Shown here: positions 16,266 through 60,334 of the stretch, in pieces | How the letters are laid out: every line of letters begins with the position of its first letter | Numbering within the stretch: the first letter of the stretch is position 1 | NCBI GenBank assembly: GCA_000002445.1 | Contig: AL929603.2 | Coordinates: 896,001-960,000 of the forward strand | Source: Trypanosoma brucei | Taxonomy: Eukaryota | Direction: 5' to 3' | Length of the DNA stretch: 64,000 nucleotides | Translations under genes and position numbers: made by a program | The notes under the pieces: model-generated | Told to the model about the DNA's origin: nothing | The model's database searches: none | The model's input: only the letters and a program-made list of their open reading frames with translations

Positions 16266-16323
16266 GGAGTGATTGTGGAGGGGAGTATTCGCTGTTCGAC
16301 AAACACCGAAACAGCCACGACGA

Positions 16324-20330: not shown

Positions 20331-20552
20331 GGTATAAAATGTACACATGTGCATATATGCACAAACAATGACAATACGAAAACAAATGATGTAGTGGGAC
20401 TGGTACCCACATCATCCTCCCCTCGAACTTTTTCAAAAAACCAGAGGTTGAAACGGTTGTGTGGGTTCAGCGCGCGTGAGTGGGAAGGTAAACTGTAAGT
20501 AATTTTTCAAATCGAGGAGGCGGAAGTGAAGGAGGTGGGGAGGGAAGTGTGC

Positions 20553-27478: not shown

Positions 27479-27538
27479 GTGCAAATCCCTAACTAACACT
27501 CTGACACGAATTATTTAAGGATCTGAGTGTGGCAAACC

Positions 27539-38569: not shown

Positions 38570-38942
38570 CCCTAGTTTAGTTGAATTCTCGATTCTGCTC
38601 GCCGTCGCAGGCTATTTTGTAGTTTTTTTAAAAAAAAACCCTTTCCCCCCTTACATCTTTCCGCGCATAACGACGCGAGATCAGCCGCTGAGGCACTCCC
38701 CATCACTGCCGCCACCGCGGCTGAATGGTGGTGGAGTGAGTTCCCTTCCATCATTGGTAAATCGTTCGGTCGCTCATTCCGGCACCAGTGCCGTGAGTCC
38801 CATTTCAAACCAACAGCTCCCGCACCAACGGGGCCCAACCGTTTCGGAGTTGTTGCAGACCGTAGCAACTCAAAAGCAAGAAATAGAGAGACTTACGGAT
38901 AGTGTCAATGCTGTTCAGCGTAACTTTGAGCGGCTGAGTGAG

Positions 38943-41138
38943 ATGTACAGCGGGGATCGTGCGGAGTTGCAGAGGTTGCGTGCGCGTGAGGCTGAGTTAG
39001 AAGAGGAGCGAAAAGCCTTGGCGGCCATGCGTGCAGAACTTGAGTCTCGTATTGGTGGGAGGATGAATGAGATTCATGAGATGGAGGAGAAGGTGAAGGG
39101 TATGTGGGAATTAGAGGATGTGAACGCAAAACTACGGGAAGAGTTGGACGAGCTTCGGGAGGTTCATGAGCAACAATGTGAGAAGGCAGAGGAAAAGCTG
39201 CGGAACGCAATGTGGGAGTTGACTGAGACGCAGCGCAAGGTGCAGAAGTTCGCCATGGAGGTACGCAACCGTTCAAATTCCATCAGTATATGCATTGACT
39301 CCAAACCCTCCGCTTCCGGGGCCAGTGGAGGTGATGGAAAGAGCTCGGATGGAAAGGCGAGTGGTAGTGACCCAAGTGGGCAACAGAGCGGATTTTCAAT
39401 AGAAGCGGAGCTGTGCGAGGCGTGGAATTGTGTAGACAAGTTATGTGTTGCTTGTTTAGAGGCACGTGTGGCATTGGAGGCTAAGCAGCAGCGTCGGGTG
39501 GCGTCGGCGGAAGGGAGGGCCGCAACTAAAGTCAATGCGGTAATGGAATTGCTGCCGGCGCTTATGGCAGAGCTGGAAGACGCCCGTCGACAGACGCTTA
39601 GTGAAGGGGAGCGCATGGAACGTCAGGCTATTTGCGGGAGTTGGGGCGATATGTCAGCGAGGGCAGTGGAGAACTGCCGCTTGTCTCATGAAAGGTTAGC
39701 AGCGGAGGAGGGGCGATATCGCATTGCATTTGAATGTTCTGAGTGGCAGGAGCGCTGCCAGATCTGCGAAGCGGCAGCTATGTCATCCTTTCGTTACTTG
39801 GCGGGTGCTCAGGATCAATTGAAGGCAACTCGTATCGCTGACGACGCTCAGCAGAAACAGCACGACATGGAGCTGAATCGACTCCGCGCGCAGATGAAAG
39901 AGGCAGAAGATATGTGGAACCGTGAGGTAAACGCGCGTCAGCGTGCACATGAGTGTGCTTTACTTGAGCAACAGAAGTGGCACGACTTGGCGATGAGGGA
40001 GGCACAAAATCGTCTCATGAAGGAATGGGAGGCCGAGAAGGAATCCTTTCAACAGCGTATAAATGCCTTAGATGAGGAAAGGTCTCACCATGCATTTTCC
40101 GTACTTTCTGAGGCGCAAAAGCGCGAGGAAGAGCTGCGCAAGGCTGCTGTGGAAATGCGTGAGGCGTTTGAAAAAAGTATTGCTGCGGCTTTGGAAACTA
40201 GTAGCGCAATGCTCGAACGTTACGAGTTTGAGACACGAGCAGGGCTCCTCAAGCTAGAACATGCGGAGCGCAGTATGTTGCGTGATCAGGAGCGTGAGGA
40301 TCGCGAGTCCAAGTGCACATCCACTCAGCACCTTAACATCCACCGAACAACGATAGAATTTTCGGCGGATATCCTGAATGCTGCCGCGGATTTCCGGTTA
40401 GACTTTCCATCAATGATGCTAGAGAGGACGAAAATTGTTGTGGACAATATGAAAGTCCTGCACGATCAGCGACTACGTGAGGTGCGGCGCCGGTATGACA
40501 ACGAGATGCGTGTTGCCGCTTCTGTGCCGCGAGAGCTTGCGAAGAAGCTTGAGCAGGAGTTAGAGGAAACAAAATGTTCCCTGCGGCAGGCTGCGGCAAC
40601 GAGTGAGCATTGTGAGGATGAGAATCGGCGGCTGACTGAGCAAATTCGCTCTCTACAGACGCAATTTGATGAACGGCCAGTCGCGCAAGAGATCCGTGTG
40701 GATGTGAAGAATTCCCTCTTGACAGCCATGCATCGTCTCATTGTAGCAGAGGAGGCAACTGAGTGTATTTTCTCCTGTGGGTTATGCATGCAGCCGCTGA
40801 AATCCCCACTTACATGTGTGCCATGCGGTCACACGTTCTGTGAAGAGTGCCTGTTGAAGCACCCTCGCAACATTACTAGCCTGCAAGCTGCGTCACAAAT
40901 GGATAGCAACAAGAGGGCACATCTCAAGGCTGGAAGTCCATTAGATGACAGCATGCCCGGAAATAAGTCCCGCAACCCCGTGCCATTAATTGTGCGGTAC
41001 TGCCCAGATTGTGCGCCCATGAACTGCAGCTCCGCTGTGCGTGTTCAGGTTCTAGACTCCCTCTCTGGAAATCTCCGGTACCGAAAGGGGGATATTGGTT
41101 TCTTACGGTCTGTCATGGCGGAAGTAGAGAAGTCGTGA
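38943..41138 (+). CDS. Coiled-coil protein with C-terminal C3HC4 RING finger (putative E3 ubiquitin ligase)
   Basis: The track ORF begins at a GTG (38736); the first in-frame ATG is 38943, and short out-of-frame uORF ATGs lie at 38725 and 38908. About 600 aa are heptad-rich and E/R/K/L/A-dominated. RING motif CGLCMQPLKSPLTCVPCGHTFCEECL at ~40775-40850. The true start could be the upstream non-ATG codon only if non-canonical initiation applies. Confidence 0.65.
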   Translation: MYSGDRAELQRLRAREAELEEERKALAAMRAELESRIGGRMNEIHEMEEKVKGMWELEDVNAKLREELDELREVHEQQCEKAEEKLRNAMWELTETQRKVQKFAMEVRNRSNSISICIDSKPSASGASGGDGKSSDGKASGSDPSGQQSGFSIEAELCEAWNCVDKLCVACLEARVALEAKQQRRVASAEGRAATKVNAVMELLPALMAELEDARRQTLSEGERMERQAICGSWGDMSARAVENCRLSHERLAAEEGRYRIAFECSEWQERCQICEAAAMSSFRYLAGAQDQLKATRIADDAQQKQHDMELNRLRAQMKEAEDMWNREVNARQRAHECALLEQQKWHDLAMREAQNRLMKEWEAEKESFQQRINALDEERSHHAFSVLSEAQKREEELRKAAVEMREAFEKSIAAALETSSAMLERYEFETRAGLLKLEHAERSMLRDQEREDRESKCTSTQHLNIHRTTIEFSADILNAAADFRLDFPSMMLERTKIVVDNMKVLHDQRLREVRRRYDNEMRVAASVPRELAKKLEQELEETKCSLRQAAATSEHCEDENRRLTEQIRSLQTQFDERPVAQEIRVDVKNSLLTAMHRLIVAEEATECIFSCGLCMQPLKSPLTCVPCGHTFCEECLLKHPRNITSLQAASQMDSNKRAHLKAGSPLDDSMPGNKSRNPVPLIVRYCPDCAPMNCSSAVRVQVLDSLSGNLRYRKGDIGFLRSVMAEVEKS

Positions 41139-43393: not shown

Positions 43394-44977
43394 ATGTTTT
43401 TGAAGGAGGGAAACAGTGAAATGCGGTTGAGCGGAGCTACGTTCTTGAAGGGCGCTGTTGATGATTTCAATGCATGTGAGTCCCCTGTTTTATCATCCGG
43501 AAGCAGTTTGGTTCTTACAAGTCCTGCTCTGAGCACCTCAGACACGTGCCGATCTGCGATGCGTGAAACCATCCCTTCCGTTTGTGCTGGCGCAGGCCTC
43601 AGCAGTCGCTGCTCAACTGATTGCACTGTGCTGAAGTGTGTGAACCCGCTGCATGTTAAGTTCCAGGAGCCGTCAGGGTTGTCAGGGGCTGATTCAGTGG
43701 ACTCGTTTGACTCGTTGGGTGACCTTTCCGAGTTGCATGAGGAACATCAACATGTTTCTTCTGTTGCCTCTGAAAAGCCTTTGACCCTTCACGATGTGCC
43801 GGAATCCGTCCTGTATGGTGCCATTCCATACCTTTCCCTTCCAGACGTCATTGCCTTATCACGGACATGTAAGAAGTTTCACAAACTGGTGCAGGGATAC
43901 TTTGCAGTGAATGAGCATGGCGTGATGAGCATCCCCGCCTTTGACACCCGCAGCTTCATGCAGTACCGTCCAGAGAGGAAACCTCCGGTAACGAAGGCGT
44001 CATCTATGGAACCCGCAACGAAAGCTTCGGACGTGAAACCCATCCGTCTGTTTTTTGGCCAGCAACGACGGGACCCACACCCCTCAGCTCTACGGCGTCT
44101 GCTGCGCTTCATTGCACCTGACCTTGTGATTGCTCACATGGAGGCTCACACGAACCCAGTTAACGGTCGTGGCAAAGGCTGCGCGTGGGTGTTCGCCCTG
44201 TCACAATTGGATGCGGAGCGACTGTTACGACTCAGTGGGCGTATCTTCCTTGACATAAATTCTAATGGTGAGGAGGTATACCTGTTCGCTCCCCCTAACT
44301 GCCGAGAGTGGTTGAATGAGCACGCGGAGTGTGCAGTCGCTTCCGCAGTTCGTCCAAGTCACTTGCCACGACAGCCGATGGTTGTGGAAGCCCCCAGGAA
44401 GTCGAGTGCCAAAGTGGAGAAGGGGTTGGAACAATGTGTGCGTCCCCATCCACAACATCGCGGTGTTACGGAGCAGCAGGCACCCGTCGCGGCGGCCCAG
44501 CAGATGCCCGACTCTGTGGAACCATTGGTACGAGTTGGGTCTCCACAGGATGAGGGCCTGCAGCAGCAGGAGCGGCCGTCCGAGGCGTGGACGACCAGCA
44601 ATCATTCGCAAGGCGACTCAACACACGGAAGGCGCAGGTCAGGGGAGGCTCTGCAGTCGGGTGAGTCCACACCTGAGCGTTTGCAAGCAAGGCGCCGCCC
44701 ATGGTTGGTTGCGGCGGATGCTTCAGCCACTCAGCGTGCCAGGGAACTTCGGTTTTGCAGCAATTCCTCAACTTCTCTTCATCATGAAATGTGGGGATTC
44801 CACCCGGGAGCACGCCTTGGCTCTGGGGTAGGCGGTGACAGATTTATTGCGTGTCCCGAGACGACAACACGCACTGTGCCCCACAACGTGTACACAAGCA
44901 CTATATGGACAGGCCCTAGGCGGTTCCGGCACGACCCGTACGTGTACGGCCCACTGTGCGTACTAGCGGCATCTTAG
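43394..44977 (+). CDS. CFB1: F-box protein with RRM-like domain and C-terminal RxxHDPY (MKT1-binding-type) motif, copy 1 (CFB1-like)
   Basis: The track start 43385 is GTG; the first ATG is 43394 (MFLKEGNSEMRL). F-box reads LTLHDVPESVLYGAIPYLSLPDVIALSRTCKKFHKLV (~43780-43890). The RRM-like segment has an RNP2-like IRLFFGQ and an RNP1-like GKGCAWVF. The C-terminal RFRHDPYVYGPL has HDPY at ~44921-44932. Copy 1 carries the private variant NHSQGDS where the other copies have NHLQGDS. The symbol is assigned from memory of the T. brucei cyclin-F-box CFB1 tandem array followed by CFB2, and is unverified. Confidence 0.8.
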   Translation: MFLKEGNSEMRLSGATFLKGAVDDFNACESPVLSSGSSLVLTSPALSTSDTCRSAMRETIPSVCAGAGLSSRCSTDCTVLKCVNPLHVKFQEPSGLSGADSVDSFDSLGDLSELHEEHQHVSSVASEKPLTLHDVPESVLYGAIPYLSLPDVIALSRTCKKFHKLVQGYFAVNEHGVMSIPAFDTRSFMQYRPERKPPVTKASSMEPATKASDVKPIRLFFGQQRRDPHPSALRRLLRFIAPDLVIAHMEAHTNPVNGRGKGCAWVFALSQLDAERLLRLSGRIFLDINSNGEEVYLFAPPNCREWLNEHAECAVASAVRPSHLPRQPMVVEAPRKSSAKVEKGLEQCVRPHPQHRGVTEQQAPVAAAQQMPDSVEPLVRVGSPQDEGLQQQERPSEAWTTSNHSQGDSTHGRRRSGEALQSGESTPERLQARRRPWLVAADASATQRARELRFCSNSSTSLHHEMWGFHPGARLGSGVGGDRFIACPETTTRTVPHNVYTSTIWTGPRRFRHDPYVYGPLCVLAAS

Positions 44978-45835
44978 CGGTCCAACTGAGTGGTGAGCAC
45001 TCCATCGAGTCTGTGTGGTGATGCTGTGGACGGCGTGTCCCCACTGGTTGGACTGTAGTTTCTTCCCTCCCTTTTTTTATATTACGTTATGTTTTTTTTT
45101 TTTCATTTTCCACTCCCTTTCTTTGCCGTTTGCACTTTGCTCGCTTGCATTAAGGATGTCTTGGGGGTCTCTGGACCGAGTGCTGTAAGGAGGAGGGGGC
45201 AATCCTTCCCTATACAAATTACCACATATACTCATTTACACTTATACACATATACGCTTTCTATCAATCCCCACTATTTATATATACCGATTCAATTATA
45301 TGACCATGGAAAAAACATATATACAACTTCCTCCGTATGTAACAGCTTCCCCCGGTACGGCACATAGACCGTCACGGGCCTCCCATTGACATAACTTGTG
45401 CAAGACTCCTGTTCCCTGCTAATTGCAGGGAAGAGACGGCTAATTGGAACTACACCTTCCTCACCCTCATTGTTTTCATTGTTTTCTTTTGTATTTCTAT
45501 TAACCTAAGATAATTTCACTCGCTGTACTTTCTTCCCTCCCTACATCTATATGTTCCCTTATATAACTTTTATACACATGTTTTTTCCTCTCTTTTTCAT
45601 CCTATACAAACATATAAGCATACCTATATACACGTATATACATACATATATATGTTTGTTTTTATATGCCGTGACTTTGTTTCTTTTTTCCCCTTTTTAT
45701 CTCTTTTTATCCCTTTCTTTCTTTTTTTACTTTTTCATTTTGAATGCCCTTATGTAAGTAAATGCTTCTTACTAATAGAGGATTGTCCTTGGCAATTTCT
45801 CTCTTATCATTTTATTTTCCTCTCCCTTGTTCTTT

Positions 45836-46014
45836 TCGTTTTATATCATTTTTCATTTCGTTTCATTTTATATCATTTTTCATTTCGTTTCATTTTATAT
45901 CATTTTTCATTTCGTTTCATTTACTATTTTATTTTACTTTCGTTTCATTTACTATTTTATTTTACTTTTGTTTCTATTTTTGTTTCCGCTGCTCACACAC
46001 ACACACACACACAC
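45836..46014. repeat. Array-spacer minisatellites: 27-nt repeat x3, 25-nt repeat x2, then (CA)~10 (long spacer class)
   Basis: ATTTTATATCATTTTTCATTTCGTTTC x3, then ATTTACTATTTTATTTTACTTT(C/T)GTTTC x2, then cacacacacacacacacacac at 45994-46014. The short-class spacers (after copies 2 and 5) carry one 27-mer copy and (CA)~5, at ~48966-49076 and ~58285-58395. Confidence 0.85.
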
Positions 46015-46521
46015 CCTGCTCTTCCAGTTGCATGACATCATTACACACTAATTGCAGTGGTGCTCCATTTGCTGTTTGCTGAAACGTTTGATTTATTTCT
46101 TGTCCCTTTCCTCAAGCATCTCTTCGTTTAGGCAACACACCATCTTTATGACAAGTGTTTATTGTAATTGTGGTGTTGTGTGATGCAGCGGTAGATTGGA
46201 CGTGTGTGTACACTTGCAGCAGTGCCTCGCACAAATCGTATCTCCTCCCGGGACTTGTGCATGCAAGTTCCCCAATTTTTAACCCGTGGCCTTGTCACCC
46301 GTTACGCTGTGTCTGCTTTTCGTTTGTTTTGTCTCTTTCTCCCAAATTCCTTTTTGCTTCTACCTTCTGTTTATTGATGCGTGTGATAGTGTTTTCCGCT
46401 ATCGGGACCAGAAGACCATAAGCAAGGTAACATCTGAGGCCAACCCAATTGCCATCATTTTCTTTGTCGTGAATTGTGAAGCAAACCTTTACCAAGCGTT
46501 ATTTGAATAGCGGTGTACACG

Positions 46522-48105
46522 ATGTTTTTGAAGGAGGGAAACAGTGAAATGCGGTTGAGCGGAGCAGCGTTCTTGAAGGGCGCTGTTGATGATATCAATG
46601 CATGTGAGTCCCCTGTTTTATCATCCGGAAGCAGTTTGGTTCTTACAAGTCCTGCTCTGAGCACCTCAGACACGTGCCGATCTGCGATGCGTGAAACCAT
46701 CCCTTCCGTTTGTGCTGGCGCAGGCCTCAGCAGTCGCTGCTCAACTGATTGCACTGTGCTGAAGTGTGTGAACCCGCTGCATGTTAAGTTCCAGGAGCCG
46801 TCAGGGTTGTCAGGGGCTGATTCAGTGGACTCGTTTGACTCGTTGGGTGACCTTTCCGAGTTGCATGAGGAACATCAACATGTTTCTTCTGTTGCCTCTG
46901 AAAAGCCTTTGACCCTTCACGATGTGCCGGAATCCGTCCTGTATGGTGCCATTCCATACCTTTCCCTTCCAGACGTCATTGCCTTATCACGGACATGTAA
47001 GAAGTTTCACAAACTGGTGCAGGGATACTTTGCAGTGAATGAGCATGGCGTGATGAGCATCCCCGCCTTTGACACCCGCAGCTTCATGCAGTACCGTCCA
47101 GAGAGGAAACCTCCGGTAACGAAGGCGTCATCTATGGAACCCGCAACGAAAGCTTCGGACGTGAAACCCATCCGTCTGTTTTTTGGCCAGCAACGACGGG
47201 ACCCACACCCCTCAGCTCTACGGCGTCTGCTGCGTTTCATTGCACCTGACCTTGTGATTGCTCACATGGAGGCTCACACGAACCCGGTTAACGGTCGTGG
47301 CAAAGGCTGCGCGTGGGTGTTCGCCCTGTCACAATTGGATGCGGAGCGACTGTTACGACTCAGTGGGCGTATCTTCCTTGACATAAATTCTAATGGTGAG
47401 GAGGTATACCTGTTCGCTCCCCCTAACTGCCGAGAGTGGTTGAATGAGCACGCGGAGTGTGCAGTCGCTTCCGCAGTTCGTCCAAGTCACTTGCCACGAC
47501 AGCCGATGGTTGTGGAAGCCCCCAGGAAGTCGAGTGCCAAAGTGGAGAAGGGGTTGGAACAATGTGTGCGTCCCCATCCACAACATCGCGGTGTTACGGA
47601 GCAGCAGGCACCCGTCGCGGCGGCCCAGCAGATGCCCGACTCTGTGGAACCATTGGTACGAGTTGGGTCTCCACAGGATGAGGGCCTGCAGCAGCAGGAG
47701 CGGCCGTCCGAGGCGTGGACGACCAGCAATCATTTGCAAGGCGACTCAACACACGGAAGGCGCAGGTCAGGGGAGGCTCTGCAGTCGGGTGAGTCCACAC
47801 CTGAGCGTTTGCAAGCAAGGCGCCGCCCATGGTTGGTTGCGGCGGATGCTTCAGCCACTCAGCGTGCCAGGGAGCTTCGGTTTTGCAGCAATTCCTCAAC
47901 TTCTCTTCATCATGAAATGTGGGGATTCCACCCGGGAGCACGCCTTGGCTCTGGGGTAGGCGGTGACAGATTTATTGCGTGTCCCGAGACGACAACACGC
48001 ACTGTGCCCCACAACGTGTACACAAGCACTATATGGACAGGCCCTAGGCGGTTCCGGCACGACCCGTACGTGTACGGCCCACTGTGCGTACTAGCGGCAT
48101 CTTAG
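46522..48105 (+). CDS. CFB1: F-box/RRM-like protein, array copy 2 (CFB1-like), variant haplotype B
   Basis: More than 99% identical to copy 1. Diagnostic substitutions are AAFLKGAVDDINACE (haplotype B) versus ATFLKGAVDDFNACE (haplotype A, copies 1, 3 and 5). Confidence 0.8.
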   Translation: MFLKEGNSEMRLSGAAFLKGAVDDINACESPVLSSGSSLVLTSPALSTSDTCRSAMRETIPSVCAGAGLSSRCSTDCTVLKCVNPLHVKFQEPSGLSGADSVDSFDSLGDLSELHEEHQHVSSVASEKPLTLHDVPESVLYGAIPYLSLPDVIALSRTCKKFHKLVQGYFAVNEHGVMSIPAFDTRSFMQYRPERKPPVTKASSMEPATKASDVKPIRLFFGQQRRDPHPSALRRLLRFIAPDLVIAHMEAHTNPVNGRGKGCAWVFALSQLDAERLLRLSGRIFLDINSNGEEVYLFAPPNCREWLNEHAECAVASAVRPSHLPRQPMVVEAPRKSSAKVEKGLEQCVRPHPQHRGVTEQQAPVAAAQQMPDSVEPLVRVGSPQDEGLQQQERPSEAWTTSNHLQGDSTHGRRRSGEALQSGESTPERLQARRRPWLVAADASATQRARELRFCSNSSTSLHHEMWGFHPGARLGSGVGGDRFIACPETTTRTVPHNVYTSTIWTGPRRFRHDPYVYGPLCVLAAS

Positions 48106-49584
48106 CGGTCCAACTGAGTGGTGAGCACTCCATCGAGTCTGTGTGGTGATGCTGTGGACGGCGTGTCCCCACTGGTTGGACTGTAGTTTCTTCCCTCCCT
48201 TTTTTTATATTACGTTATGTTTTTTTTTTTCATTTTCCACTCCCTTTCTTTGCCGTTTGCACTTTGCTCGCTTGCATTAAGGATGTCTTGGGGGTCTCTG
48301 GACCGAGTGCTGTAAGGAGGAGGGGGCAATCCTTCCCTATACAAATTACCACATATACTCATTTACACTTATACACATATACGCTTTCTATCAATCCCCA
48401 CTATTTATATATACCGATTCAATTATATGACCATGGAAAAAACATATATACAACTTCCTCCGTATGTAACAGCTTCCCCCGGTACGGCACATAGACCGTC
48501 ACGGGCCTCCCATTGACATAACTTGTGCAAGACTCCTGTTCCCTGCTAATTGCAGGGAAGAGACGGCTAATTGGAACTACACCTTCCTCACCCTCATTGT
48601 TTTCATTGTTTTCTTTTGTATTTCTATTAACCTAAGATAATTTCACTCGCTGTACTTTCTTCCCTCCCTACATCTATATGTTCCCTTATATAACTTTTAT
48701 ACACATGTTTTTTCCTCTCTTTTTCATCCTATACAAACATATAAGCATATCTATATACACGTATATACATACATATATATGTTTGTTTTTATATGCCGTG
48801 ACTTTGTTTCTTTTTCCCCCTTTTTATCTCTTTTTATCCCTTTCTTTCTTTTTTTACTTTTTCATTTTGAATGCCCTTATGTAAGTAAACGCTTCTTACT
48901 AATAGAGGATTGTCCTTGGCAATTTCTCTCTTATCATTTTATTTTCCTCTCCCTTGTTCTTTTCGTTTTATATCATTTTTCATTTCGTTTCATTTACTAT
49001 TTTATTTTACTTTTGTTTCATTTACTATTTTATTTTACTTTTGTTTCTATTTTTGTTTCCGCTGCTCACACACACACCCTGCTCTTCCAGTTGCATGACA
49101 TCATTACACACTAATTGCAGTGGTGCTCCATTTGCTGTTTGCTGAAACGTTTGATTTATTTCTTGTCCCTTTCCTCAAGCATCTCTTCGTTTAGGCAACA
49201 CACCATCTTTATGACAAGTGTTTATTGTAATTGTGGTGTTGTGTGATGCAGCGGTAGATTGGACGTGTGTGTACACTTGCAGCAGTGCCTCGCACAAATC
49301 GTATCTCCTCCCGGGACTTGTGCATGCAAGTTCCCCAATTTTTAACCCGTGGCCTTGTCACCCGTTACGCTGTGTCTGCTTTTCGTTTGTTTTGTCTCTT
49401 TCTCCCAAATTCCTTTTTGCTTCTACCTTCTGTTTATTGATGCGTGTGATAGTGTTTTCCGCTATCGGGACCAGAAGACCATAAGCAAGGTAACATCTGA
49501 GGCCAACCCAATTGCCATCATTTTCTTTGTCGTGAATTGTGAAGCAAACCTCTACCAAGCGTTATTTGAATAGCGGTGTACACG

Positions 49585-51168
49585 ATGTTTTTGAAGGAGG
49601 GAAACAGTGAAATGCGGTTGAGCGGAGCTACGTTCTTGAAGGGCGCTGTTGATGATTTCAATGCATGTGAGTCCCCTGTTTTATCATCCGGAAGCAGTTT
49701 GGTTCTCACAAGTCCTGCTCTGAGCACCTCAGACACGTGCCGATCTGCGATGCGTGAAACCATCCCTTCCGTTTGTGCTGGCGCAGGCCTCAGCAGTCGC
49801 TGCTCAACTGATTGCACTGTGCTGAAGTGTGTGAACCCGCTGCATGTTAAGTTCCAGGAGCCGTCAGGGTTGTCAGGGGCTGATTCAGTGGACTCGTTTG
49901 ACTCGTTGGGTGACCTTTCCGAGTTGCATGAGGAACATCAACATGTTTCTTCTGTTGCCTCTGAAAAGCCTTTGACCCTTCACGATGTGCCGGAATCCGT
50001 CCTGTATGGTGCCATTCCATACCTTTCCCTTCCAGACGTCATTGCCTTATCACGGACATGTAAGAAGTTTCACAAACTGGTGCAGGGATACTTTGCAGTG
50101 AATGAGCATGGCGTGATGAGCATCCCCGCCTTTGACACCCGCAGCTTCATGCAGTACCGTCCAGAGAGGAAACCTCCGGTAACGAAGGCGTCATCTATGG
50201 AACCCGCAACGAAAGCTTCGGACGTGAAACCCATCCGTCTGTTTTTTGGCCAGCAACGACGGGACCCACACCCCTCAGCTCTACGGCGTCTGCTGCGCTT
50301 CATTGCACCTGACCTTGTGATTGCTCACATGGAGGCTCACACGAACCCAGTTAACGGTCGTGGCAAAGGCTGCGCGTGGGTGTTCGCCCTGTCACAATTG
50401 GATGCGGAGCGACTGTTACGACTCAGTGGGCGTATCTTCCTTGACATAAATTCTAATGGTGAGGAGGTATACCTGTTCGCTCCCCCTAACTGCCGAGAGT
50501 GGTTGAATGAGCACGCGGAGTGTGCAGTCGCTTCTGCAGTTCGTCCAAGTCACTTGCCACGACAGCCGATGGTTGTGGAAGCCCCCAGGAAGTCGAGTGC
50601 CAAAGTGGAGAAGGGGTTGGAACAATGTGTGCGTCCCCATCCACAACATCGCGGTGTTACGGAGCAGCAGGCACCCGTCGCGGCGGCCCAGCAGATGCCC
50701 GACTCTGTGGAACCATTGGTACGAGTTGGGTCTCCACAGGATGAGGGCCTGCAGCAGCAGGAGCGGCCGTCCGAGGCGTGGACGACCAGCAATCATTTGC
50801 AAGGCGACTCAACACACGGAAGGCGCAGGTCAGGGGAGGCTCTGCAGTCGGGTGAGTCCACACCTGAGCGTTTGCAAGCAAGGCGCCGCCCATGGTTGGT
50901 TGCGGCGGATGCTTCAGCCACTCAGCGTGCCAGGGAGCTTCGGTTTTGCAGCAATTCCTCAACTTCTCTTCATCATGAAATGTGGGGATTCCACCCGGGA
51001 GCACGCCTTGGCTCTGGGGTAGGCGGTGACAGATTTATTGCGTGTCCCGAGACGACAACACGCACTGTGCCCCACAACGTGTACACAAGCACTATATGGA
51101 CAGGCCCTAGGCGGTTCCGGCACGACCCGTACGTGTACGGCCCACTGTGCGTACTAGCGGCATCTTAG
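49585..51168 (+). CDS. CFB1: F-box/RRM-like protein, array copy 3 (CFB1-like), haplotype A
   Basis: Identical in protein to copy 5 and differs from copy 1 at one residue (NHLQ versus NHSQ). Confidence 0.8.
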   Translation: MFLKEGNSEMRLSGATFLKGAVDDFNACESPVLSSGSSLVLTSPALSTSDTCRSAMRETIPSVCAGAGLSSRCSTDCTVLKCVNPLHVKFQEPSGLSGADSVDSFDSLGDLSELHEEHQHVSSVASEKPLTLHDVPESVLYGAIPYLSLPDVIALSRTCKKFHKLVQGYFAVNEHGVMSIPAFDTRSFMQYRPERKPPVTKASSMEPATKASDVKPIRLFFGQQRRDPHPSALRRLLRFIAPDLVIAHMEAHTNPVNGRGKGCAWVFALSQLDAERLLRLSGRIFLDINSNGEEVYLFAPPNCREWLNEHAECAVASAVRPSHLPRQPMVVEAPRKSSAKVEKGLEQCVRPHPQHRGVTEQQAPVAAAQQMPDSVEPLVRVGSPQDEGLQQQERPSEAWTTSNHLQGDSTHGRRRSGEALQSGESTPERLQARRRPWLVAADASATQRARELRFCSNSSTSLHHEMWGFHPGARLGSGVGGDRFIACPETTTRTVPHNVYTSTIWTGPRRFRHDPYVYGPLCVLAAS

Positions 51169-52711: not shown

Positions 52712-54295
52712 ATGTTTTTGAAGGAGGGAAACAGTGAAATGCGGTTGAGCGGAGCAGCGTTCTTGAAGGGCGCTGTTGATGATATCAATGCATGTGAGTC
52801 CCCTGTTTTATCATCCGGAAGCAGTTTGGTTCTTACAAGTCCTGCTCTGAGCACCTCAGACACGTGCCGATCTGCGATGCGTGAAACCATCCCTTCCGTT
52901 TGTGCTGGCGCAGGCCTCAGCAGTCGCTGCTCAACTGATTGCACTGTGCTGAAGTGTGTGAACCCGCTGCATGTTAAGTTCCAGGAGCCGTCAGGGTTGT
53001 CAGGGGCTGATTCAGTGGACTCGTTTGACTCGTTGGGTGACCTTTCCGAGTTGCATGAGGAACATCAACATGTTTCTTCTGTTGCCTCTGAAAAGCCTTT
53101 GACCCTTCACGATGTGCCGGAATCCGTCCTGTATGGTGCCATTCCATACCTTTCCCTTCCAGACGTCATTGCCTTATCACGGACATGTAAGAAGTTTCAC
53201 AAACTGGTGCAGGGATACTTTGCAGTGAATGAGCATGGCGTGATGAGCATCCCCGCCTTTGACACCCGCAGCTTCATGCAGTACCGTCCGGAGAGGAAAC
53301 CTCCGGTAACGAAGGCGTCATCTATGGAACCCGCAACGAAAGCTTCGGACGTGAAGCCCATCCGTCTGTTTTTTGGCCAGCAACGACGGGACCCACACCC
53401 CTCAGCTCTACGGCGTCTGCTGCGCTTCATTGCACCTGACCTTGTGATTGCTCACATGGAGGCTCACACGAACCCAGTTAACGGTCGTGGCAAAGGCTGC
53501 GCGTGGGTGTTCGCCCTGTCACAATTGGATGCGGAGCGACTGTTACGACTCAGTGGGCGTATCTTCCTTGACATAAATTCTAATGGTGAGGAGGTATACC
53601 TGTTCGCTCCCCCTAACTGCCGAGAGTGGTTGAATGAGCACGCGGAGTGTGCAGTCGCTTCCGCAGTTCGTCCAAGTCACTTGCCACGACAGCCGATGGT
53701 TGTGGAAGCCCCCAGGAAGTCGAGTGCCAAAGTGGAGAAGGGGTTGGAACAATGTGTGCGTCCCCATCCACAACATCGCGGTGTTACGGAGCAGCAGGCA
53801 CCCGTCGCGGCGGCCCAGCAGATGCCCGACTCTGTGGAACCATTGGTACGAGTTGGGTCTCCACAGGATGAGGGCCTGCAGCAGCAGGAGCGGCCGTCCG
53901 AGGCGTGGACGACCAGCAATCATTTGCAAGGCGACTCAACACACGGAAGGCGCAGGTCAGGGGAGGCTCTGCAGTCGGGTGAGTCCACACCTGAGCGTTT
54001 GCAAGCAAGGCGCCGCCCATGGTTGGTTGCGGCGGATGCTTCAGCCACTCAGCGTGCCAGGGAGCTTCGGTTTTGCAGCAATTCCTCAACTTCTCTTCAT
54101 CATGAAATGTGGGGATTCCACCCGGGAGCACGCCTTGGCTCTGGGGTAGGCGGTGACAGATTTATTGCGTGTCCCGAGACGACAACACGCACTGTGCCCC
54201 ACAACGTGTACACAAGCACTATATGGACAGGCCCTAGGCGGTTCCGGCACGACCCGTACGTGTACGGCCCACTGTGCGTACTAGCGGCATCTTAG
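52712..54295 (+). CDS. CFB1: F-box/RRM-like protein, array copy 4 (CFB1-like), haplotype B
   Basis: Protein identical to copy 2. Confidence 0.8.
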   Translation: MFLKEGNSEMRLSGAAFLKGAVDDINACESPVLSSGSSLVLTSPALSTSDTCRSAMRETIPSVCAGAGLSSRCSTDCTVLKCVNPLHVKFQEPSGLSGADSVDSFDSLGDLSELHEEHQHVSSVASEKPLTLHDVPESVLYGAIPYLSLPDVIALSRTCKKFHKLVQGYFAVNEHGVMSIPAFDTRSFMQYRPERKPPVTKASSMEPATKASDVKPIRLFFGQQRRDPHPSALRRLLRFIAPDLVIAHMEAHTNPVNGRGKGCAWVFALSQLDAERLLRLSGRIFLDINSNGEEVYLFAPPNCREWLNEHAECAVASAVRPSHLPRQPMVVEAPRKSSAKVEKGLEQCVRPHPQHRGVTEQQAPVAAAQQMPDSVEPLVRVGSPQDEGLQQQERPSEAWTTSNHLQGDSTHGRRRSGEALQSGESTPERLQARRRPWLVAADASATQRARELRFCSNSSTSLHHEMWGFHPGARLGSGVGGDRFIACPETTTRTVPHNVYTSTIWTGPRRFRHDPYVYGPLCVLAAS

Positions 54296-55840: not shown

Positions 55841-57424
55841 ATGTTTTTGAAGGAGGGAAACAGTGAAATGCGGTTGAGCGGAGCTACGTTCTTGAAGGGC
55901 GCTGTTGATGATTTCAATGCATGTGAGTCCCCTGTTTTATCATCCGGAAGCAGTTTGGTTCTTACAAGTCCTGCTCTGAGCACCTCAGACACGTGCCGAT
56001 CTGCGATGCGTGAAACCATCCCTTCCGTTTGTGCTGGCGCAGGCCTCAGCAGTCGCTGCTCAACTGATTGCACTGTGCTGAAGTGTGTGAACCCGCTGCA
56101 TGTTAAGTTCCAGGAGCCGTCAGGGTTGTCAGGGGCTGATTCAGTGGACTCGTTTGACTCGTTGGGTGACCTTTCCGAGTTGCATGAGGAACATCAACAT
56201 GTTTCTTCTGTTGCCTCTGAAAAGCCTTTGACCCTTCACGATGTGCCGGAATCCGTCCTGTATGGTGCCATTCCATACCTTTCCCTTCCAGACGTCATTG
56301 CCTTATCACGGACATGTAAGAAGTTTCACAAACTGGTGCAGGGATACTTTGCAGTGAATGAGCATGGCGTGATGAGCATCCCCGCCTTTGACACCCGCAG
56401 CTTCATGCAGTACCGTCCAGAGAGGAAACCTCCGGTAACGAAGGCGTCATCTATGGAACCCGCAACGAAAGCTTCGGACGTGAAACCCATCCGTCTGTTT
56501 TTTGGCCAGCAACGACGGGACCCACACCCCTCAGCTCTACGGCGTCTGCTGCGCTTCATTGCACCTGACCTTGTGATTGCTCACATGGAGGCTCACACGA
56601 ACCCAGTTAACGGTCGTGGCAAAGGCTGCGCGTGGGTGTTCGCCCTGTCACAATTGGATGCGGAGCGACTGTTACGACTCAGTGGGCGTATCTTCCTTGA
56701 CATAAATTCTAATGGTGAGGAGGTATACCTGTTCGCTCCCCCTAACTGCCGAGAGTGGTTGAATGAGCACGCGGAGTGTGCAGTCGCTTCCGCAGTTCGT
56801 CCAAGTCACTTGCCACGACAGCCGATGGTTGTGGAAGCCCCCAGGAAGTCGAGTGCCAAAGTGGAGAAGGGGTTGGAACAATGTGTGCGTCCCCATCCAC
56901 AACATCGCGGTGTTACGGAGCAGCAGGCACCCGTCGCGGCGGCCCAGCAGATGCCCGACTCTGTGGAACCATTGGTACGAGTTGGGTCTCCACAGGATGA
57001 GGGCCTGCAGCAGCAGGAGCGGCCGTCCGAGGCGTGGACGACCAGCAATCATTTGCAAGGCGACTCAACACACGGAAGGCGCAGGTCAGGGGAGGCTCTG
57101 CAGTCGGGTGAGTCCACACCTGAGCGTTTGCAAGCAAGGCGCCGCCCATGGTTGGTTGCGGCGGATGCTTCAGCCACTCAGCGTGCCAGGGAACTTCGGT
57201 TTTGCAGCAATTCCTCAACTTCTCTTCATCATGAAATGTGGGGATTCCACCCGGGAGCACGCCTTGGCTCTGGGGTAGGCGGTGACAGATTTATTGCGTG
57301 TCCCGAGACGACAACACGCACTGTGCCCCACAACGTGTACACAAGCACTATATGGACAGGCCCTAGGCGGTTCCGGCACGACCCGTACGTGTACGGCCCA
57401 CTGTGCGTACTAGCGGCATCTTAG
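55841..57424 (+). CDS. CFB1: F-box/RRM-like protein, array copy 5 (CFB1-like), haplotype A
   Basis: Protein identical to copy 3. Confidence 0.8.
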   Translation: MFLKEGNSEMRLSGATFLKGAVDDFNACESPVLSSGSSLVLTSPALSTSDTCRSAMRETIPSVCAGAGLSSRCSTDCTVLKCVNPLHVKFQEPSGLSGADSVDSFDSLGDLSELHEEHQHVSSVASEKPLTLHDVPESVLYGAIPYLSLPDVIALSRTCKKFHKLVQGYFAVNEHGVMSIPAFDTRSFMQYRPERKPPVTKASSMEPATKASDVKPIRLFFGQQRRDPHPSALRRLLRFIAPDLVIAHMEAHTNPVNGRGKGCAWVFALSQLDAERLLRLSGRIFLDINSNGEEVYLFAPPNCREWLNEHAECAVASAVRPSHLPRQPMVVEAPRKSSAKVEKGLEQCVRPHPQHRGVTEQQAPVAAAQQMPDSVEPLVRVGSPQDEGLQQQERPSEAWTTSNHLQGDSTHGRRRSGEALQSGESTPERLQARRRPWLVAADASATQRARELRFCSNSSTSLHHEMWGFHPGARLGSGVGGDRFIACPETTTRTVPHNVYTSTIWTGPRRFRHDPYVYGPLCVLAAS

Positions 57425-58903: not shown

Positions 58904-60334
58904 ATGTCCTTGGAGGAGGGAAGCAGTGAAATGCGGTTGAGCGGAGCAGCGTTCTTGAAGGGCGCTGTTGATGATTTCCATGCGGGTAAATCTTCTGCTT
59001 TGTCATCTGGTAGCAGTCCTGCGCTTACTGTGTCTGTTTTTAGTACGCCGGCGTTCGGTTGTTCGACATTTGGTAACTCATCGCCGGTTTGTGGCGGCCA
59101 TGAAGCCAACTACGAAGCTGTTGCGCTCCGTGATGCCCCCTTGAGCAGTCGAGGTATCGTTGCTTGGGATAGGATGAAGTGTGAGAGCTCACTTTTTGTG
59201 AAACTTCAGGCGTCTTCAGGGTTGTCCGGAACCGACTCAGAGGACATAGCTAACCCGTTAGTGGATCTTTCGGATGCTTGCGGAACAGATGCCCTTTCCG
59301 AGTTGCGTGAGGAACATCAACATATTTCTTCTGTTGCCTCTGAAAAGCCTTTGACCCTTCACGATGTGCCGGAATCCGTCCTGTATGGTGCCATTCCATA
59401 CCTTTCCCTTCCAGACGTCATTGCCTTATCACGGACATGTAAGAAGTTTCACAAACTGGTGCAGGGATACTTTGCAGTGAATGAGCATGGCGTGATGAGC
59501 ATCCCCGCCTTTGACACCCGCAGCTTCATGCAGTACCGTCCAGAGAGGAAACCTCCGGTAACGAAGGTCACAGCCGCGGGACCCGCCCCTAAAATTCCTG
59601 GTGTGAAACCCATCCGTCTGTTTTTTGGCCAGCAACGACGGGACGTTTATCCCTCAGCTCTACGGCGTCTGCTGCGCTTCATTGCACCTGACCTTGTTAT
59701 CACTCACATGGAGGCTCACGTGAATGAGGCAACTGGTCGGGGCAAAGGCTGCGCATGGGTTATTGTTCCTTCAGTGTTGGAGGCGAAACGACTGTTACGA
59801 CTCAGTGGGCGTATCTTCCTTGACATAAATTCTAATGGTGAGGAGGTATACCTGTTCGCTCCCCCTAACTGCCGAGAGTGGTTAAGTGAGTACGCCGACT
59901 ACGTTGTCTCCTCAACAACTCGTGCAAGCCATCTTCCGTACTTACCAATGGTTGTTGGAGTACCGAAGAAGGAGTGTATATATGTACGTGAGCTTTTGGC
60001 ACCTTATATTTATGATCCCAATCGCGGTGACTGTCCGCCATATGCCGACGCGGTTTCGGAGTTTAAGGGCTTATTGGAGGATCATGCGTTACTTCCAGTA
60101 TCTTCCGCCGTATCGGGCATTATTCCTCCTTTTGCTTCTGTTCCTCCTATGGTGCAGACTTGCATGTTTTCTTCCTCTTTTGATCGTAGAGAATACTTTG
60201 AAGCCCCCAACGTTTATACCAGCACGGTGTGGACTGGCTTCAGTCGGTACCGCCATGATCCGTATGTGTTTGATCCACTACGGGAGCCAACGAACATGTT
60301 ACCGCTGCATGAAGTGGATTACGCTGAGATGTAG
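58904..60334 (+). CDS. CFB2: Divergent terminal array member: F-box/RRM-like protein with C-terminal RYRHDPY motif (CFB2-like)
   Basis: The track start 58895 is GTG; the ATG is 58904 (MSLEEGSSEMRL). The N-terminal ~110 aa and the C-terminal ~150 aa are diverged from CFB1. The central F-box and RRM-like core (EKPLTLHDVPESVLYG...QYRPERKPPVTK; PIRLFFGQQRRD; LRLSGRIFLDINSNGEEVYLFAPPNCREWL) is nucleotide-identical to CFB1 over long tracts. HDPY at 60254-60265 (cgc cat gat ccg tat) sits inside RYRHDPYVFDPL. The spacer upstream of it is of the short array class, and the sequence downstream of the stop is unique. Symbol assigned from memory, unverified. Confidence 0.75.
   Translation: MSLEEGSSEMRLSGAAFLKGAVDDFHAGKSSALSSGSSPALTVSVFSTPAFGCSTFGNSSPVCGGHEANYEAVALRDAPLSSRGIVAWDRMKCESSLFVKLQASSGLSGTDSEDIANPLVDLSDACGTDALSELREEHQHISSVASEKPLTLHDVPESVLYGAIPYLSLPDVIALSRTCKKFHKLVQGYFAVNEHGVMSIPAFDTRSFMQYRPERKPPVTKVTAAGPAPKIPGVKPIRLFFGQQRRDVYPSALRRLLRFIAPDLVITHMEAHVNEATGRGKGCAWVIVPSVLEAKRLLRLSGRIFLDINSNGEEVYLFAPPNCREWLSEYADYVVSSTTRASHLPYLPMVVGVPKKECIYVRELLAPYIYDPNRGDCPPYADAVSEFKGLLEDHALLPVSSAVSGIIPPFASVPPMVQTCMFSSSFDRREYFEAPNVYTSTVWTGFSRYRHDPYVFDPLREPTNMLPLHEVDYAEM

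What the first reader, a model, noticed from the sequence alone, without database searches (positions are those of the whole stretch)
43394..44977. Unannotated RRM-like fold between the F-box and the MKT1-type motif
Between the F-box and the C-terminus the protein reads PIRLFFGQQRRD...(~30 aa)...GRGKGCAWVFALSQLDAERLLRLSGRIFLD...GEEVYLFAPP. IRLFFG is RNP2-like (compare LFVGNL) and KGCAWVF is RNP1-like (compare KGFGFVxF), with spacing that matches a beta1-alpha1-beta2-beta3-alpha2-beta4 RRM. If this fold is real, it is a structural candidate for the RNA-contact surface of these F-box proteins. It is fully conserved between the CFB1 copies and the CFB2-like gene.
Basis: inference. Interest (0 to 1): 0.6.

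Follow-up and report, generated by a model that had tools for sequence, protein, structure and literature searches.

The report
Hidden RRM domain in trypanosome CFB proteins
The conserved middle part of the trypanosome F-box proteins CFB1 and CFB2, described in the literature as lacking any known RNA-binding domain, is a divergent RNA recognition motif (RRM), which gives a concrete, testable candidate for how CFB2 holds the VSG coat-protein mRNA.

Summary
The quoted motifs lie in a 527-aa ORF (43394-44977), the first of five near-identical CFB1 copies, followed by CFB2 (58904-60334).

The RRM interpretation is supported by three independent tests.
- A profile of 85 relatives hits solved RRMs almost exclusively: CELF1 RRM1/2 at E=1.2e-7 and CELF2 at 1.4e-6.
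- Profile-profile comparison with 26 canonical RRMs gives 93.6% probability (P=2e-7). RLFFGQ aligns on RNP2 and KGCAWV on RNP1.

Single-sequence Pfam and PDB searches find nothing, which explains the missing annotation.

- The domain is 216-337 and carries a conserved 40-residue C-terminal extension (helix plus LPRQPxVVExP).
- It is not fully conserved between CFB1 and CFB2 (70/83 core residues).
- The F of KGCAWVF is variable. The conserved aromatics are F220 and W265.

At least 117 relatives share the domain, mostly as F-box, often a zinc ribbon, RRM, then a C-terminal H(N/D)PY motif. RNA contact through this domain is inferred, not shown.

The parts
43394..44977 (+). CFB1 copy 1, complete ORF (527 aa from the ATG; the ORF lister starts at the GTG at 43385)
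   Evidence: 99% identical to a 527-aa database protein, P0002.
43778..43903 (+). F-box (residues 129-170, PLTLHDVPESVLYGAIPYLSLPDVIALSRTCKKFHKLVQGYF)
   Evidence: Weak Pfam F-box-like and F-box matches, below the cut-offs. SKP1 binding of the CFB2 F-box is published (PMC8051951). This block is 257/258 nt identical between CFB1 and CFB2.
44039..44287 (+). RRM core, residues 216-298. Strands and helices: b1 217-222, a1 231-240, b2 246-253, b3 260-268, a2 271-278, hairpin strand 284-288, b4 294-298.
44048..44065 (+). RNP2-like hexamer LFFGQQ (residues 219-224). F220 is the position-2 aromatic.
   Evidence: Aligned to RNP2 of CELF1 (MFVGQV) and of the canonical RRM profile. F is 99%, G 100% and Q 100% conserved in 85 relatives.
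44174..44197 (+). RNP1-like octamer KGCAWVFA (residues 261-268). K261, C263 and W265 are predicted to lie on the sheet face.
   Evidence: Aligned to CELF1 KGCCFVTF / RGCAFVTF. K/R 100%, G 100%, C 94%, W 92%. Position 7 is variable: Y 68%, F in CFB1, I in CFB2.
44288..44404 (+). Family-specific C-terminal extension (residues 299-337): helix a3 301-315, then the RPxxLPRQPxVVExP motif with a short strand at 330-332
   Evidence: Block-mean pLDDT 95-98 in the model. R320 84%, L324 82%, P325 94%, R326 84%, V330 89%, E332 96%, P334 84% conserved. How it packs on the core could not be inspected.
44930..44941 (+). HDPY, the MKT1-binding motif (residues 513-516)
   Evidence: Sequence. The nonapeptide PRRFRHDPY binds MKT1 in yeast two-hybrid (PMC3985637).
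47167..47532 (+). RRM domain of CFB1 copy 2
   Evidence: Protein identical to copy 1 over residues 216-337.
50230..50595 (+). RRM domain of CFB1 copy 3
   Evidence: Protein identical to copy 1.
53357..53722 (+). RRM domain of CFB1 copy 4
   Evidence: Protein identical to copy 1.
56486..56851 (+). RRM domain of CFB1 copy 5
   Evidence: Protein identical to copy 1.
59609..59974 (+). RRM domain of CFB2 (residues 236-357 of the 476-aa protein starting at the ATG at 58904). RNP2 is at 59618-59635 and RNP1 (KGCAWVIV) at 59744-59767.
   Evidence: 70/83 core residues are identical to CFB1.

Best explanation
Residues 216-337 of CFB1 (236-357 of CFB2) fold as a divergent RNA recognition motif. It has a b1-a1-b2-b3-a2-b4 core and a family-specific C-terminal helix-plus-strand extension.

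It most likely is the module through which these F-box proteins contact single-stranded RNA. Contact would be on the four-stranded sheet, using the conserved RNP2 aromatic (F220; F240 in CFB2), the RNP1 Lys and Trp (K261 and W265; K281 and W285 in CFB2) and neighbouring conserved polar residues.

The C-terminal HDPY then recruits MKT1-PBP1 to stabilise the mRNA, and the N-terminal F-box binds SKP1 and limits CFB2 abundance.

Shown here: the fold, its homology to RRMs, the conservation pattern and the family architecture.
Shown in the literature: CFB2 association with VSG mRNA, dependence on the 16-mer, and the MKT1 and SKP1 interactions.
Inferred: that the RRM sheet is the RNA-contact surface, and that it reads the 16-mer.
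For: Homology to RRMs
- A profile of 85 relatives hits PDB RRMs almost exclusively: CELF1 1.2e-7, CELF2 1.4e-6, BRUNOL4 2e-3, hnRNP A1 0.03. All but three of the 39 hits at E<=10 are RRM proteins.
- hhalign against 26 canonical RRMs, with CELF left out and all 26 validated as Pfam RRM_1, gives 93.6% probability, P=2.1e-7 over 67 columns.
- My own run with CELF1 included gives 95.2%, while reversed and shuffled controls give at most 1.8%.

Fold
- AF2: pLDDT 90.8, pTM 0.82, RRM topology.
- Foldseek: top 50 all RRMs.

Conservation on the predicted RNA face
- The near-invariant residues lie on the predicted RNA-facing side of the sheet: R218 92%, F220 99%, Q223 100%, E250 93%, H252 96%, K/R261 100%, C263 94%, W265 92%.
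- RNP motifs are not degenerate, unlike in protein-binding RRM variants.

Architecture
- The domain co-occurs with a C-terminal [HNY][NDEQT]PY motif in 62 of 94 relatives that have at least 40 residues downstream. Shuffled tails give 2.1. This fits an RNA-binding adaptor for MKT1.

Literature
- CFB2 was purified with UV-cross-linked VSG mRNA, and its action needs the 16-mer.
- It is described as lacking known RNA-binding domains, with the mode of binding left open (PMC8051951; bioRxiv 10.1101/2020.10.08.331769).
Against: - No experiment or computation here shows RNA binding by the isolated domain.
- RNP1 is atypical. It has Cys at position 3 (as in CELF RRM1/2), Trp instead of Phe/Tyr at position 5, and Ala/Val at position 8.
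- In F-box proteins the domain after the F-box is normally a protein-substrate receptor.
- Pfam RRM_1 does not reach its threshold on CFB1 or CFB2 and matches only 3 of 85 relatives weakly.
- CFB2 departs from the family consensus in the extension (R346Y, Q347L, E352G in CFB2 numbering).
Confidence: 0.7

Rival explanations
1. The domain has an RRM fold but works as a protein-interaction module: the substrate receptor of an SCF(CFB) ubiquitin ligase, or a UHM-like peptide binder. RNA association of CFB2 would then be mediated elsewhere or indirectly.
For: - It sits where F-box proteins carry their substrate-binding domain.
- An R-x-F tripeptide (R283-I-F285; R 87%, F 76% conserved) lies at the a2/b4 junction, the place of the UHM R-X-F motif.
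- Several top structural hits are RRMs solved in protein complexes: RBM39-DCAF15, Hsh49-Cus1, Y14.
- The 40-residue extension could cover the sheet (not inspected).
Against: - RNP2 and RNP1 are not degenerate. F220, K261 and W265 are 92-100% conserved.
- Helix a1 is basic in CFB1 and CFB2 (SALRRLLRFI), not acidic as in UHMs.
- The closest sequence and structure relatives are RNA-bound CELF RRMs.
- Per PMC8051951, all but three of the VSG-mRNP-enriched proteins, a set that includes CFB2, were detected in the poly(A)+ mRNP proteome, and CFB2 was purified with UV-cross-linked VSG mRNA.
Confidence: 0.18
2. The RRM binds RNA, but its target is not the 16-mer. It would read another feature of VSG mRNA, such as the m6A-modified poly(A) tail, which also depends on the 16-mer, using the conserved aromatic residues.
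For: - PMC8051951 states that CFB2 could in principle recognise either the 16-mer or m6A.
- The family has Trp at RNP1 position 5, Tyr or Phe at position 7 in most members, and Phe on b1. That is three neighbouring aromatics.
Against: - m6A is present on many mRNAs, whereas CFB2 loss affects VSG mRNA specifically (the argument made in PMC8051951).
- In CFB2 itself RNP1 position 7 is Ile, so only two aromatics remain.
- No similarity to YTH or other m6A readers was seen.
Confidence: 0.08
3. The RNP-like motifs are chance resemblances and the region is not an RRM.
For: - Single-sequence Pfam and PDB searches find nothing.
- AF2 with only 3 sequences was low-confidence, pLDDT 48.
Against: - Profile E=1.2e-7 to RRMs.
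- hhalign 93.6-95.2% against at most 1.8% for controls.
- Even the low-confidence model had the same order of secondary-structure elements.
Confidence: 0.02

Closest known systems
CELF/Bruno-like (CUGBP1, ETR-3, BRUNOL4-6) RRM1 and RRM2
   Same: - Shared RNP2 'xFVGQ(V/I/L)' with a basic residue before it.
- Shared RNP1 '(K/R)GC(C/A)(F/W)V' with Cys at position 3.
   Different: - CFB proteins have one RRM, not three.
- RNP1 position 5 is Trp.
- b2 carries a conserved H-x-E-x-H-T signature.
- There is a conserved 40-residue C-terminal extension (a3 plus LPRQPxVVExP).
- Identity is only about 20%.
- The flanking F-box and H(N/D)PY motifs are absent from CELF proteins.
Canonical RRM (Pfam PF00076 RRM_1; e.g. 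hnRNP A1, HuR, PABP, U1A)
   Same: - b-a-b-b-a-b sandwich.
- RNP2 on b1 and RNP1 on b3 in the expected register and spacing.
- hhalign 93.6%.
   Different: - Does not reach the Pfam gathering score.
- Atypical RNP1, KGCAWV(Y/F/I)V.
- Extra C-terminal elements.
Extended or variant RRMs (xRRM of LARP7/Pof8, PTB RRMs with a fifth strand, U1A helix C, occluded RRMs)
   Different: - xRRMs lack RNP1 and RNP2, whereas here both are conserved.
- The geometry of the CFB extension relative to the sheet is unknown.
Proteins that combine an RNA-binding domain with an E3-ligase module (e.g. Roquin). PMC8051951 cites at least 15 human proteins of this kind; the further examples CNOT4, MEX3 and MKRN are from general knowledge.
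   Same: An RNA-binding domain and a ubiquitin-ligase-recruiting element in one polypeptide. Auto-ubiquitination has been proposed for them.
   Different: - Those use RING domains. CFB proteins use an F-box (an SCF adaptor).
- CFB proteins add an MKT1-recruiting motif.
Trypanosome MKT1-recruiting RNA-binding proteins (ZC3H11, ZC3H20/21, PUF and DRBD proteins with H(N/D)PY)
   Same: A sequence-specific RNA-binding domain plus an H(N/D)PY motif that recruits MKT1-PBP1 to stabilise the bound mRNA (PMC3985637).
   Different: - Their RNA-binding domains (CCCH, PUF, annotated RRMs) were recognised. The CFB one was not.
- CFB proteins also carry an F-box.

Membership tests
RRM superfamily (RNA recognition motif) | b1-a1-b2-b3-a2-b4 alpha/beta sandwich with a four-stranded antiparallel sheet | tested here: met
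   [not shown]
RRM superfamily (RNA recognition motif) | RNP2 hexamer on b1, [ILV]-[FY]-[ILV]-x-N-L, with the position-2 aromatic | tested here: met
   LFFGQQ in CFB1 and CFB2; family consensus (L/V)F(L/F/V)GQL. F is 99% conserved. Q replaces N, as in CELF RRMs.
RRM superfamily (RNA recognition motif) | RNP1 octamer on b3, [RK]-G-[FY]-[GA]-[FY]-[ILV]-x-[FY] | tested here: inconclusive
   KGCAWVFA. Positions 1, 2, 4 and 6 conform. Position 5 is aromatic but Trp. Position 3 is Cys, as in CELF RRM1/2. Position 8 is Ala/Val.
RRM superfamily (RNA recognition motif) | Statistically significant sequence similarity to known RRMs | tested here: met
   Profile against PDB sequences: E=1.2e-7. hhalign 93.6% with P=2.1e-7, and 95.2% against at most 1.8% for controls.
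RRM superfamily (RNA recognition motif) | Pfam RRM_1 gathering score (20.7 bits) on the single sequence | tested here: not met
   No RRM match at E<=10 for CFB1 or CFB2. Only 3 of 85 relatives match, best E=0.005. This is a database-sensitivity criterion, not a structural one.
RRM superfamily (RNA recognition motif) | Binding of single-stranded RNA by the domain | not testable with these tools
   Only full-length CFB2 association with VSG mRNA is published (PMC8051951).
UHM (U2AF homology motif, protein-binding RRM variant) | Degenerate RNP motifs, an acidic helix a1, and an R-X-F motif in the a2-b4 loop | tested here: not met
   RNP residues are 92-100% conserved. Helix a1 is basic and hydrophobic (SALRRLLRFI). 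Only an R-I-F tripeptide at 283-285 resembles the R-X-F motif.
CELF/Bruno family | Three RRMs (two N-terminal, one C-terminal) separated by a divergent linker | tested here: not met
   One RRM-like domain per CFB protein. The similarity is at domain level only.
F-box proteins (SCF adaptors) | F-box motif that binds SKP1 | tested here: inconclusive
   Pfam F-box-like 18.6 bits (cut-off 24.3) and F-box 16.8 bits (cut-off 20.5) at residues 134-167. Relatives P0017 and P0021 pass the F-box cut-off. SKP1 binding by CFB2 in yeast two-hybrid is published (PMC8051951).
MKT1-binding H(N/D)PY proteins | (H/N)(D/E/N/Q)PY motif that binds MKT1 | tested here: met
   HDPY at residues 513-516. PRRFRHDPY is sufficient for the MKT1 two-hybrid interaction (PMC3985637). 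The motif is present downstream of the RRM in 62 of 94 relatives, against 2.1 expected.

The most novel reading that the evidence does not exclude
The CFB RRM founds a previously unrecognised, widespread family of F-box / (zinc ribbon) / RRM / H(N/D)PY proteins. At least 117 cluster representatives were found. Only the Trypanosoma members are named; the rest come from unnamed eukaryotic and environmental assemblies.

In this family an RNA-reading domain occupies the substrate-receptor position of an SCF ubiquitin ligase. RNA sequence, rather than a protein degron, would then choose where the ligase and the MKT1 stabilising complex act. That amounts to RNA-guided ubiquitination of mRNP components coupled to mRNA stabilisation.

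A conserved His-x-Glu-x-His (b2) plus Cys/Trp (b3) cluster on the sheet may add an unusual recognition chemistry, such as a metal site or a modified base.
Probability: 0.15. Interest if true: 0.8.

Novelty: new variant of a known kind. Interest (0 to 1): 0.6.

Why it matters
CFB2 is essential for bloodstream-form Trypanosoma brucei because it stabilises VSG mRNA, the transcript behind antigenic variation. [quoted passage not shown] They state that its mode of mRNA binding needs further investigation (PMC8051951; bioRxiv 10.1101/2020.10.08.331769). None of the 13 papers in the searched library that mention CFB2 together with RRM terms, 'RNA-binding domain', AlphaFold or F-box/MKT1 links the CFB central region to an RRM; three were read for this point and three others only where they mention CFB2.

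Assigning the conserved central region to a divergent RRM turns that open question into defined experiments:
- point mutants F240A, W285A and K281A in CFB2;
- an isolated domain (236-357) for binding and structural work with the 16-mer.

It also points to the substitutions between CFB1 and CFB2 as candidates for their different targets. These lie in the b2-b3 loop, at the end of b3 and in a2.

Finally, it shows that the F-box + RRM + MKT1-motif architecture extends well beyond the Trypanosoma CFB genes.

Tried and rejected
- Single-sequence searches were negative. Pfam hmmscan of CFB1 and CFB2 at E<=10 found only weak F-box hits. phmmer of residues 200-345 against PDB sequences found nothing meaningful.
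- The search for homologous proteins returned one T. vivax fragment with the single sequence and one EukProt fragment with the profile. It was not useful for depth or taxonomy.
- AF2 with a 3-sequence alignment that included the F-box gave pLDDT 47.9. It had the same element order but was too uncertain to use.
- The afdb50 fold library was unavailable. I therefore could not see whether AlphaFold DB or other resources already show this fold for CFB entries.
- Model coordinates are not exposed, so the packing of the a3/b6 extension against the sheet could not be inspected.
- A mutual-information (APC) covariation analysis on 94 sequences, meant to place the extension, was dominated by subfamily signal and was uninformative.
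- Cluster and contig look-ups gave organism names only for T. rangeli and T. congolense. The distant relatives come from unnamed ENA, JGI, Logan and EukProt assemblies, so the taxonomic range is not established.
- A UHM-type reading was considered and rejected, because helix a1 is basic and the RNPs are conserved.
Full report
**What is in the sequence**

The finding's coordinates (43394-44977, + strand) are one complete ORF of 527 aa from the ATG. The mechanical ORF list starts it at a GTG at 43385. It is the first of five tandem copies, with ATGs at 43394, 46522, 49585, 52712 and 55841. The copies are 99-100% identical in protein. A related 476-aa gene follows at 58904-60334.

Database matches and the literature identify these as Trypanosoma brucei CFB1 (five copies) and CFB2 (PMC8051951).

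- PIRLFFGQQRRD at residues 216-227;
- GRGKGCAWVFALSQLDAERLLRLSGRIFLD at 258-287;
- GEEVYLFAPP at 292-301.

They lie between a weak F-box match (residues 134-167, below Pfam cut-offs) and RFRHDPY at 510-516.

**Why it was not annotated**

Single-sequence methods see nothing.
- Pfam gives no RRM match at E<=10 for CFB1 or CFB2.
- phmmer against all PDB sequences gives only noise.

[quoted passage not shown] Full-text searches combining CFB2 with 'RRM', 'RNA recognition', 'RNA-binding domain', 'AlphaFold' or 'F-box'/'MKT1' returned 13 papers. I read three for this point and three others only where they mention CFB2; judged by that text and the listed titles and abstracts, none makes the link. UniRef names the T. 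rangeli orthologue only 'F-box domain-containing protein'.

**Building a family**

An exhaustive HMMER search with CFB1 residues 200-345 against 1.84 billion cluster representatives found 119 proteins at E<=1e-3, of which 46 are at E<=1e-10. The match always covered query positions of about 18-138, i.e. CFB1 residues 217-337.

I extracted the domain from the 94 full-coverage members and aligned 85 of them with CFB1 first (alignment A3). The family consensus is:

R(L/V)FxGQLR(K/R)(E/D)xT ... W(L)L ... P ... H(I/V)ExHT ... GRGKGCAWVYV ... A..LL.LH(K/R)RvFxDvd..G.EGvW ... L...A..R ... RP..LPRQPLVVExP

**Sequence-level tests of the RRM idea**

- A profile of A3 searched against all PDB sequences gave 39 hits at E<=10, and all but three are RRM proteins. 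The leaders are CELF1 RRM1-2 (E=1.2e-7), another CELF1 construct (3.6e-7), CELF2 (1.4e-6), BRUNOL4 (1.9e-3) and hnRNP A1 (0.03).
- The printed alignments put RlFlGQl on CELF1's kMFVGQv (RNP2). They put gKGCawvyv on sKGCCFVTF and sRGCAFVTF (RNP1).
- Profile-profile comparison (hhalign) of A3 with 26 canonical RRMs, from which I left out CELF, gave 93.6% probability and P=2.1e-7 over 67 columns. The 26 sequences were written from memory and then verified: all 26 hit Pfam RRM_1.
- My own hhalign run with CELF1 included gave 95.2% and P=2.5e-8. A reversed RRM alignment and 20 column-shuffled RRM alignments gave at most 1.8%.
- Scanned individually, only 3 of 85 family members touch Pfam RRM_1, best E=0.005. 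This is a genuinely divergent branch.

**Structure-level tests**

- AF2 with a 3-sequence alignment (F-box to domain) was low-confidence at pLDDT 47.9, although the order of elements was already b-a-b-b-a-b.
- With A3 as the alignment the domain model is confident: mean pLDDT 90.8, pTM 0.82, and 120 of 139 residues at or above 90.
- The elements, in CFB1 numbering, are b1 217-222, a1 231-240, b2 246-253, b3 260-268, a2 271-278, a hairpin strand 284-288, b4 294-298, a3 301-315 and a short strand 330-332.
- Foldseek against the PDB returns only RRMs in the top 50, including RBM39 RRM2, BRUNOL6, HuR, eIF3g, CFIm68 and PABP. E-values start at 8e-5 and target-normalised TM-scores reach 0.78.

The fold assignment is secure.

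**Anatomy and conservation**

- RNP2 is L219-F220-F221-G222-Q223-Q224. F is 99%, G 100% and Q 100% conserved. Position 6 is Leu in 78% of the family but Gln in the Trypanosoma CFBs. R218, just before it, is 92% conserved; CELF1 has Lys there.
- RNP1 is K261-G262-C263-A264-W265-V266-F267-A268. K/R is 100%, G 100%, C 94%, A 80% and W 92% conserved. Position 7 is Tyr in 68% of members, Phe in CFB1, Ile in CFB2 and Thr in T. vivax.

Two of the three classical stacking positions are therefore aromatic and nearly invariant: RNP2 position 2 and RNP1 position 5. The third, RNP1 position 3, is Cys, as in CELF RRM1/2.

Strand b2 carries a family signature H248-x-E250-x-H252-T, conserved at 60%, 93%, 96% and 60%. 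By strand alternation its side chains should share the sheet face with K261, C263 and W265. That is my inference from the secondary structure, not from coordinates.

F220, W265, K261 and R218 are the better targets.

After b4 comes an extension that is as conserved as the RNPs: R320 84%, L324 82%, P325 94%, R326 84%, V330 89%, E332 96% and P334 84%. It is modelled with block-mean pLDDT of 95-98. Because coordinates are not exposed, I could not tell whether it adds a strand to the sheet or covers it. A covariation attempt was uninformative.

**CFB1 versus CFB2**

The claim of full conservation is wrong.
- In the RRM core, 70 of 83 residues are identical; in the extension, 24 of 39.
- The differences cluster at 228-229 (b1-a1 loop), 253-257 (b2-b3 loop), 267-269 (end of RNP1) and 271-275 (a2). 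The loop and RNP1-end positions commonly tune RRM specificity. The idea that they explain CFB2's VSG-specific role is an inference.
- The nucleotide identity between the two genes is mosaic. It is 257/258 nt over residues 116-201 (the F-box block), and 30/30 nt per 10 codons at residues 231-240 and 281-300. It drops to about 60-80% in between.

Part of the paralogue 'conservation' is therefore gene conversion. The real evidence for constraint is the cross-species family alignment.

**Family architecture**

- Among the relatives, 75 of 100 with at least 60 upstream residues have an F-box-like segment. This was found by an iterative HMM seeded with the CFB1 F-box. Two of ten scanned in Pfam pass the F-box cut-off.
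- 55 of 117 have a CxxC...CxxC zinc ribbon immediately before the RRM, with weak RanBP-type or zinc-ribbon Pfam hits. It is absent from the Trypanosoma CFBs.
- 62 of 94 with at least 40 downstream residues carry [HNY][NDEQT]PY, mostly 7-40 residues from the C-terminus. Shuffled tails give 2.1.

The module F-box / (zinc ribbon) / RRM / MKT1 motif is thus conserved well beyond the named Trypanosoma genes. Apart from T. vivax, T. congolense and T. rangeli, the sources are unnamed ENA, JGI, Logan and EukProt assemblies. The taxonomic range is not established.

**Mechanism**

*Published:* CFB2 co-purifies with UV-cross-linked VSG mRNA and is needed for its stability. Its action needs the 3'-UTR 16-mer. 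HDPY binds MKT1, which brings PBP1, PABP2 and EIF4E6/G5. The F-box binds SKP1 and lowers CFB2 abundance (PMC8051951; PMC3985637).

*Added here:* the only folded, conserved region between these two motifs is an RRM with intact RNP aromatics. Its closest relatives are RNA-bound CELF RRMs.

*Best explanation (confidence 0.7):* this RRM is the RNA-contact module, and in CFB2 it reads the 16-mer region.

*Rivals:*
- An RRM fold used for protein recognition, as SCF substrate receptor or UHM-like binder (0.18). It is disfavoured by the conserved RNPs and the basic a1 helix, but not excluded, because the extension might occlude the sheet.
- RNA binding, but to another feature such as m6A poly(A) (0.08).
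- Chance resemblance (0.02).

**Novelty and score**

The fold is a known kind (RRM). This branch is divergent enough to escape Pfam. It has its own signatures (GQLRK, HxExHT, GRGKGCAWVYV, LPRQPLVVExP), a conserved C-terminal extension, and an unusual context of F-box plus MKT1 motif. I file it as a new variant of a known kind.

I could not check AlphaFold DB or InterPro, where the fold may already be visible to anyone who looks.

Interest is 0.6. The result is not astonishing for an RNA-associated protein. It does directly answer a question the field has stated as open, for an essential virulence-linked factor, and it makes that question testable with a few point mutants.

Noticed in passing
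43739-43996 (CFB1 copy 1, residues 116-201) versus 59309-59566 (CFB2); also CFB1 residues 231-240 and 281-300: Nucleotide identity between CFB1 and CFB2 is mosaic. It is 257/258 nt in the F-box block and 30/30 nt per 10 codons in two tracts inside the RRM. Elsewhere it is about 60-80%. This pattern fits gene conversion between the paralogues, with the divergent patches (b2-b3 loop, end of b3, a2) escaping it.
   Followed up: partly
[not shown]
   Followed up: partly
44135-44152 (H248-T253) and 44180-44188 (C263-W265) in CFB1 copy 1: Strand b2 carries a conserved H-x-E-x-H-T signature (E 93%, H252 96%). By strand register it should face the same side as C263 (94%) and W265 (92%). A His/Glu/His/Cys cluster on an RRM sheet is unusual and could be a metal site or a base-specific pocket.
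   Followed up: no
59879-59959 (CFB2 residues 326-352): CFB2 departs from the otherwise highly conserved extension motif LPRQPxVVE. It reads LPYLPMVVG: R to Y, Q to L, and E to G at a position that is 96% Glu in the family. One T. vivax protein (P0001) also has Gly at the Glu position.
   Followed up: no
44063-44065 and equivalents (RNP2 position 6): The Trypanosoma CFBs read GQQRRD where 78% of the family reads GQLR(K/R)(E/D). That is a clade-specific change of the buried or edge RNP2 position 6.
   Followed up: no
43394-57424: The five CFB1 copies form a tandem array with ATG-to-ATG spacing of 3128, 3063, 3127 and 3129 bp. The domain DNA differs by only 0-2 nt between copies.
   Followed up: partly
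45652-46082 (+), intergenic after CFB1 copy 1: Overlapping low-complexity ORFs of 127 and 106 aa have repeated 'ILYHFSFRF'/'FISFHF' units and an 'HTHTHT' run. These are most likely translated simple repeats in the intergenic/UTR region, not genes.
   Followed up: no
16273-19161, 20526-24056, 27527-31993, 38736-41138 (all + strand): The upstream genes on the same strand encode an ABC-transporter domain protein, a BK/Slowpoke-type K+ channel, a Ctf4/Mcl1 homologue with WD40, and a RING-finger protein. Six other long ORFs have no Pfam match. All long ORFs but one (30829-31572, minus strand, lying inside the 27527-31993 ORF) are on the + strand, which fits a kinetoplastid polycistronic unit.
   Followed up: partly
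L001 3001-4650 (ENA metagenome scaffold carrying relative P0008): A 549-aa relative sits in a dense run of genes, all but one short ORF on the same strand, next to an M17 leucyl aminopeptidase, on an environmental metagenome scaffold. This suggests a free-living or uncharacterised kinetoplastid-like source. The organism was not identified.
   Followed up: no
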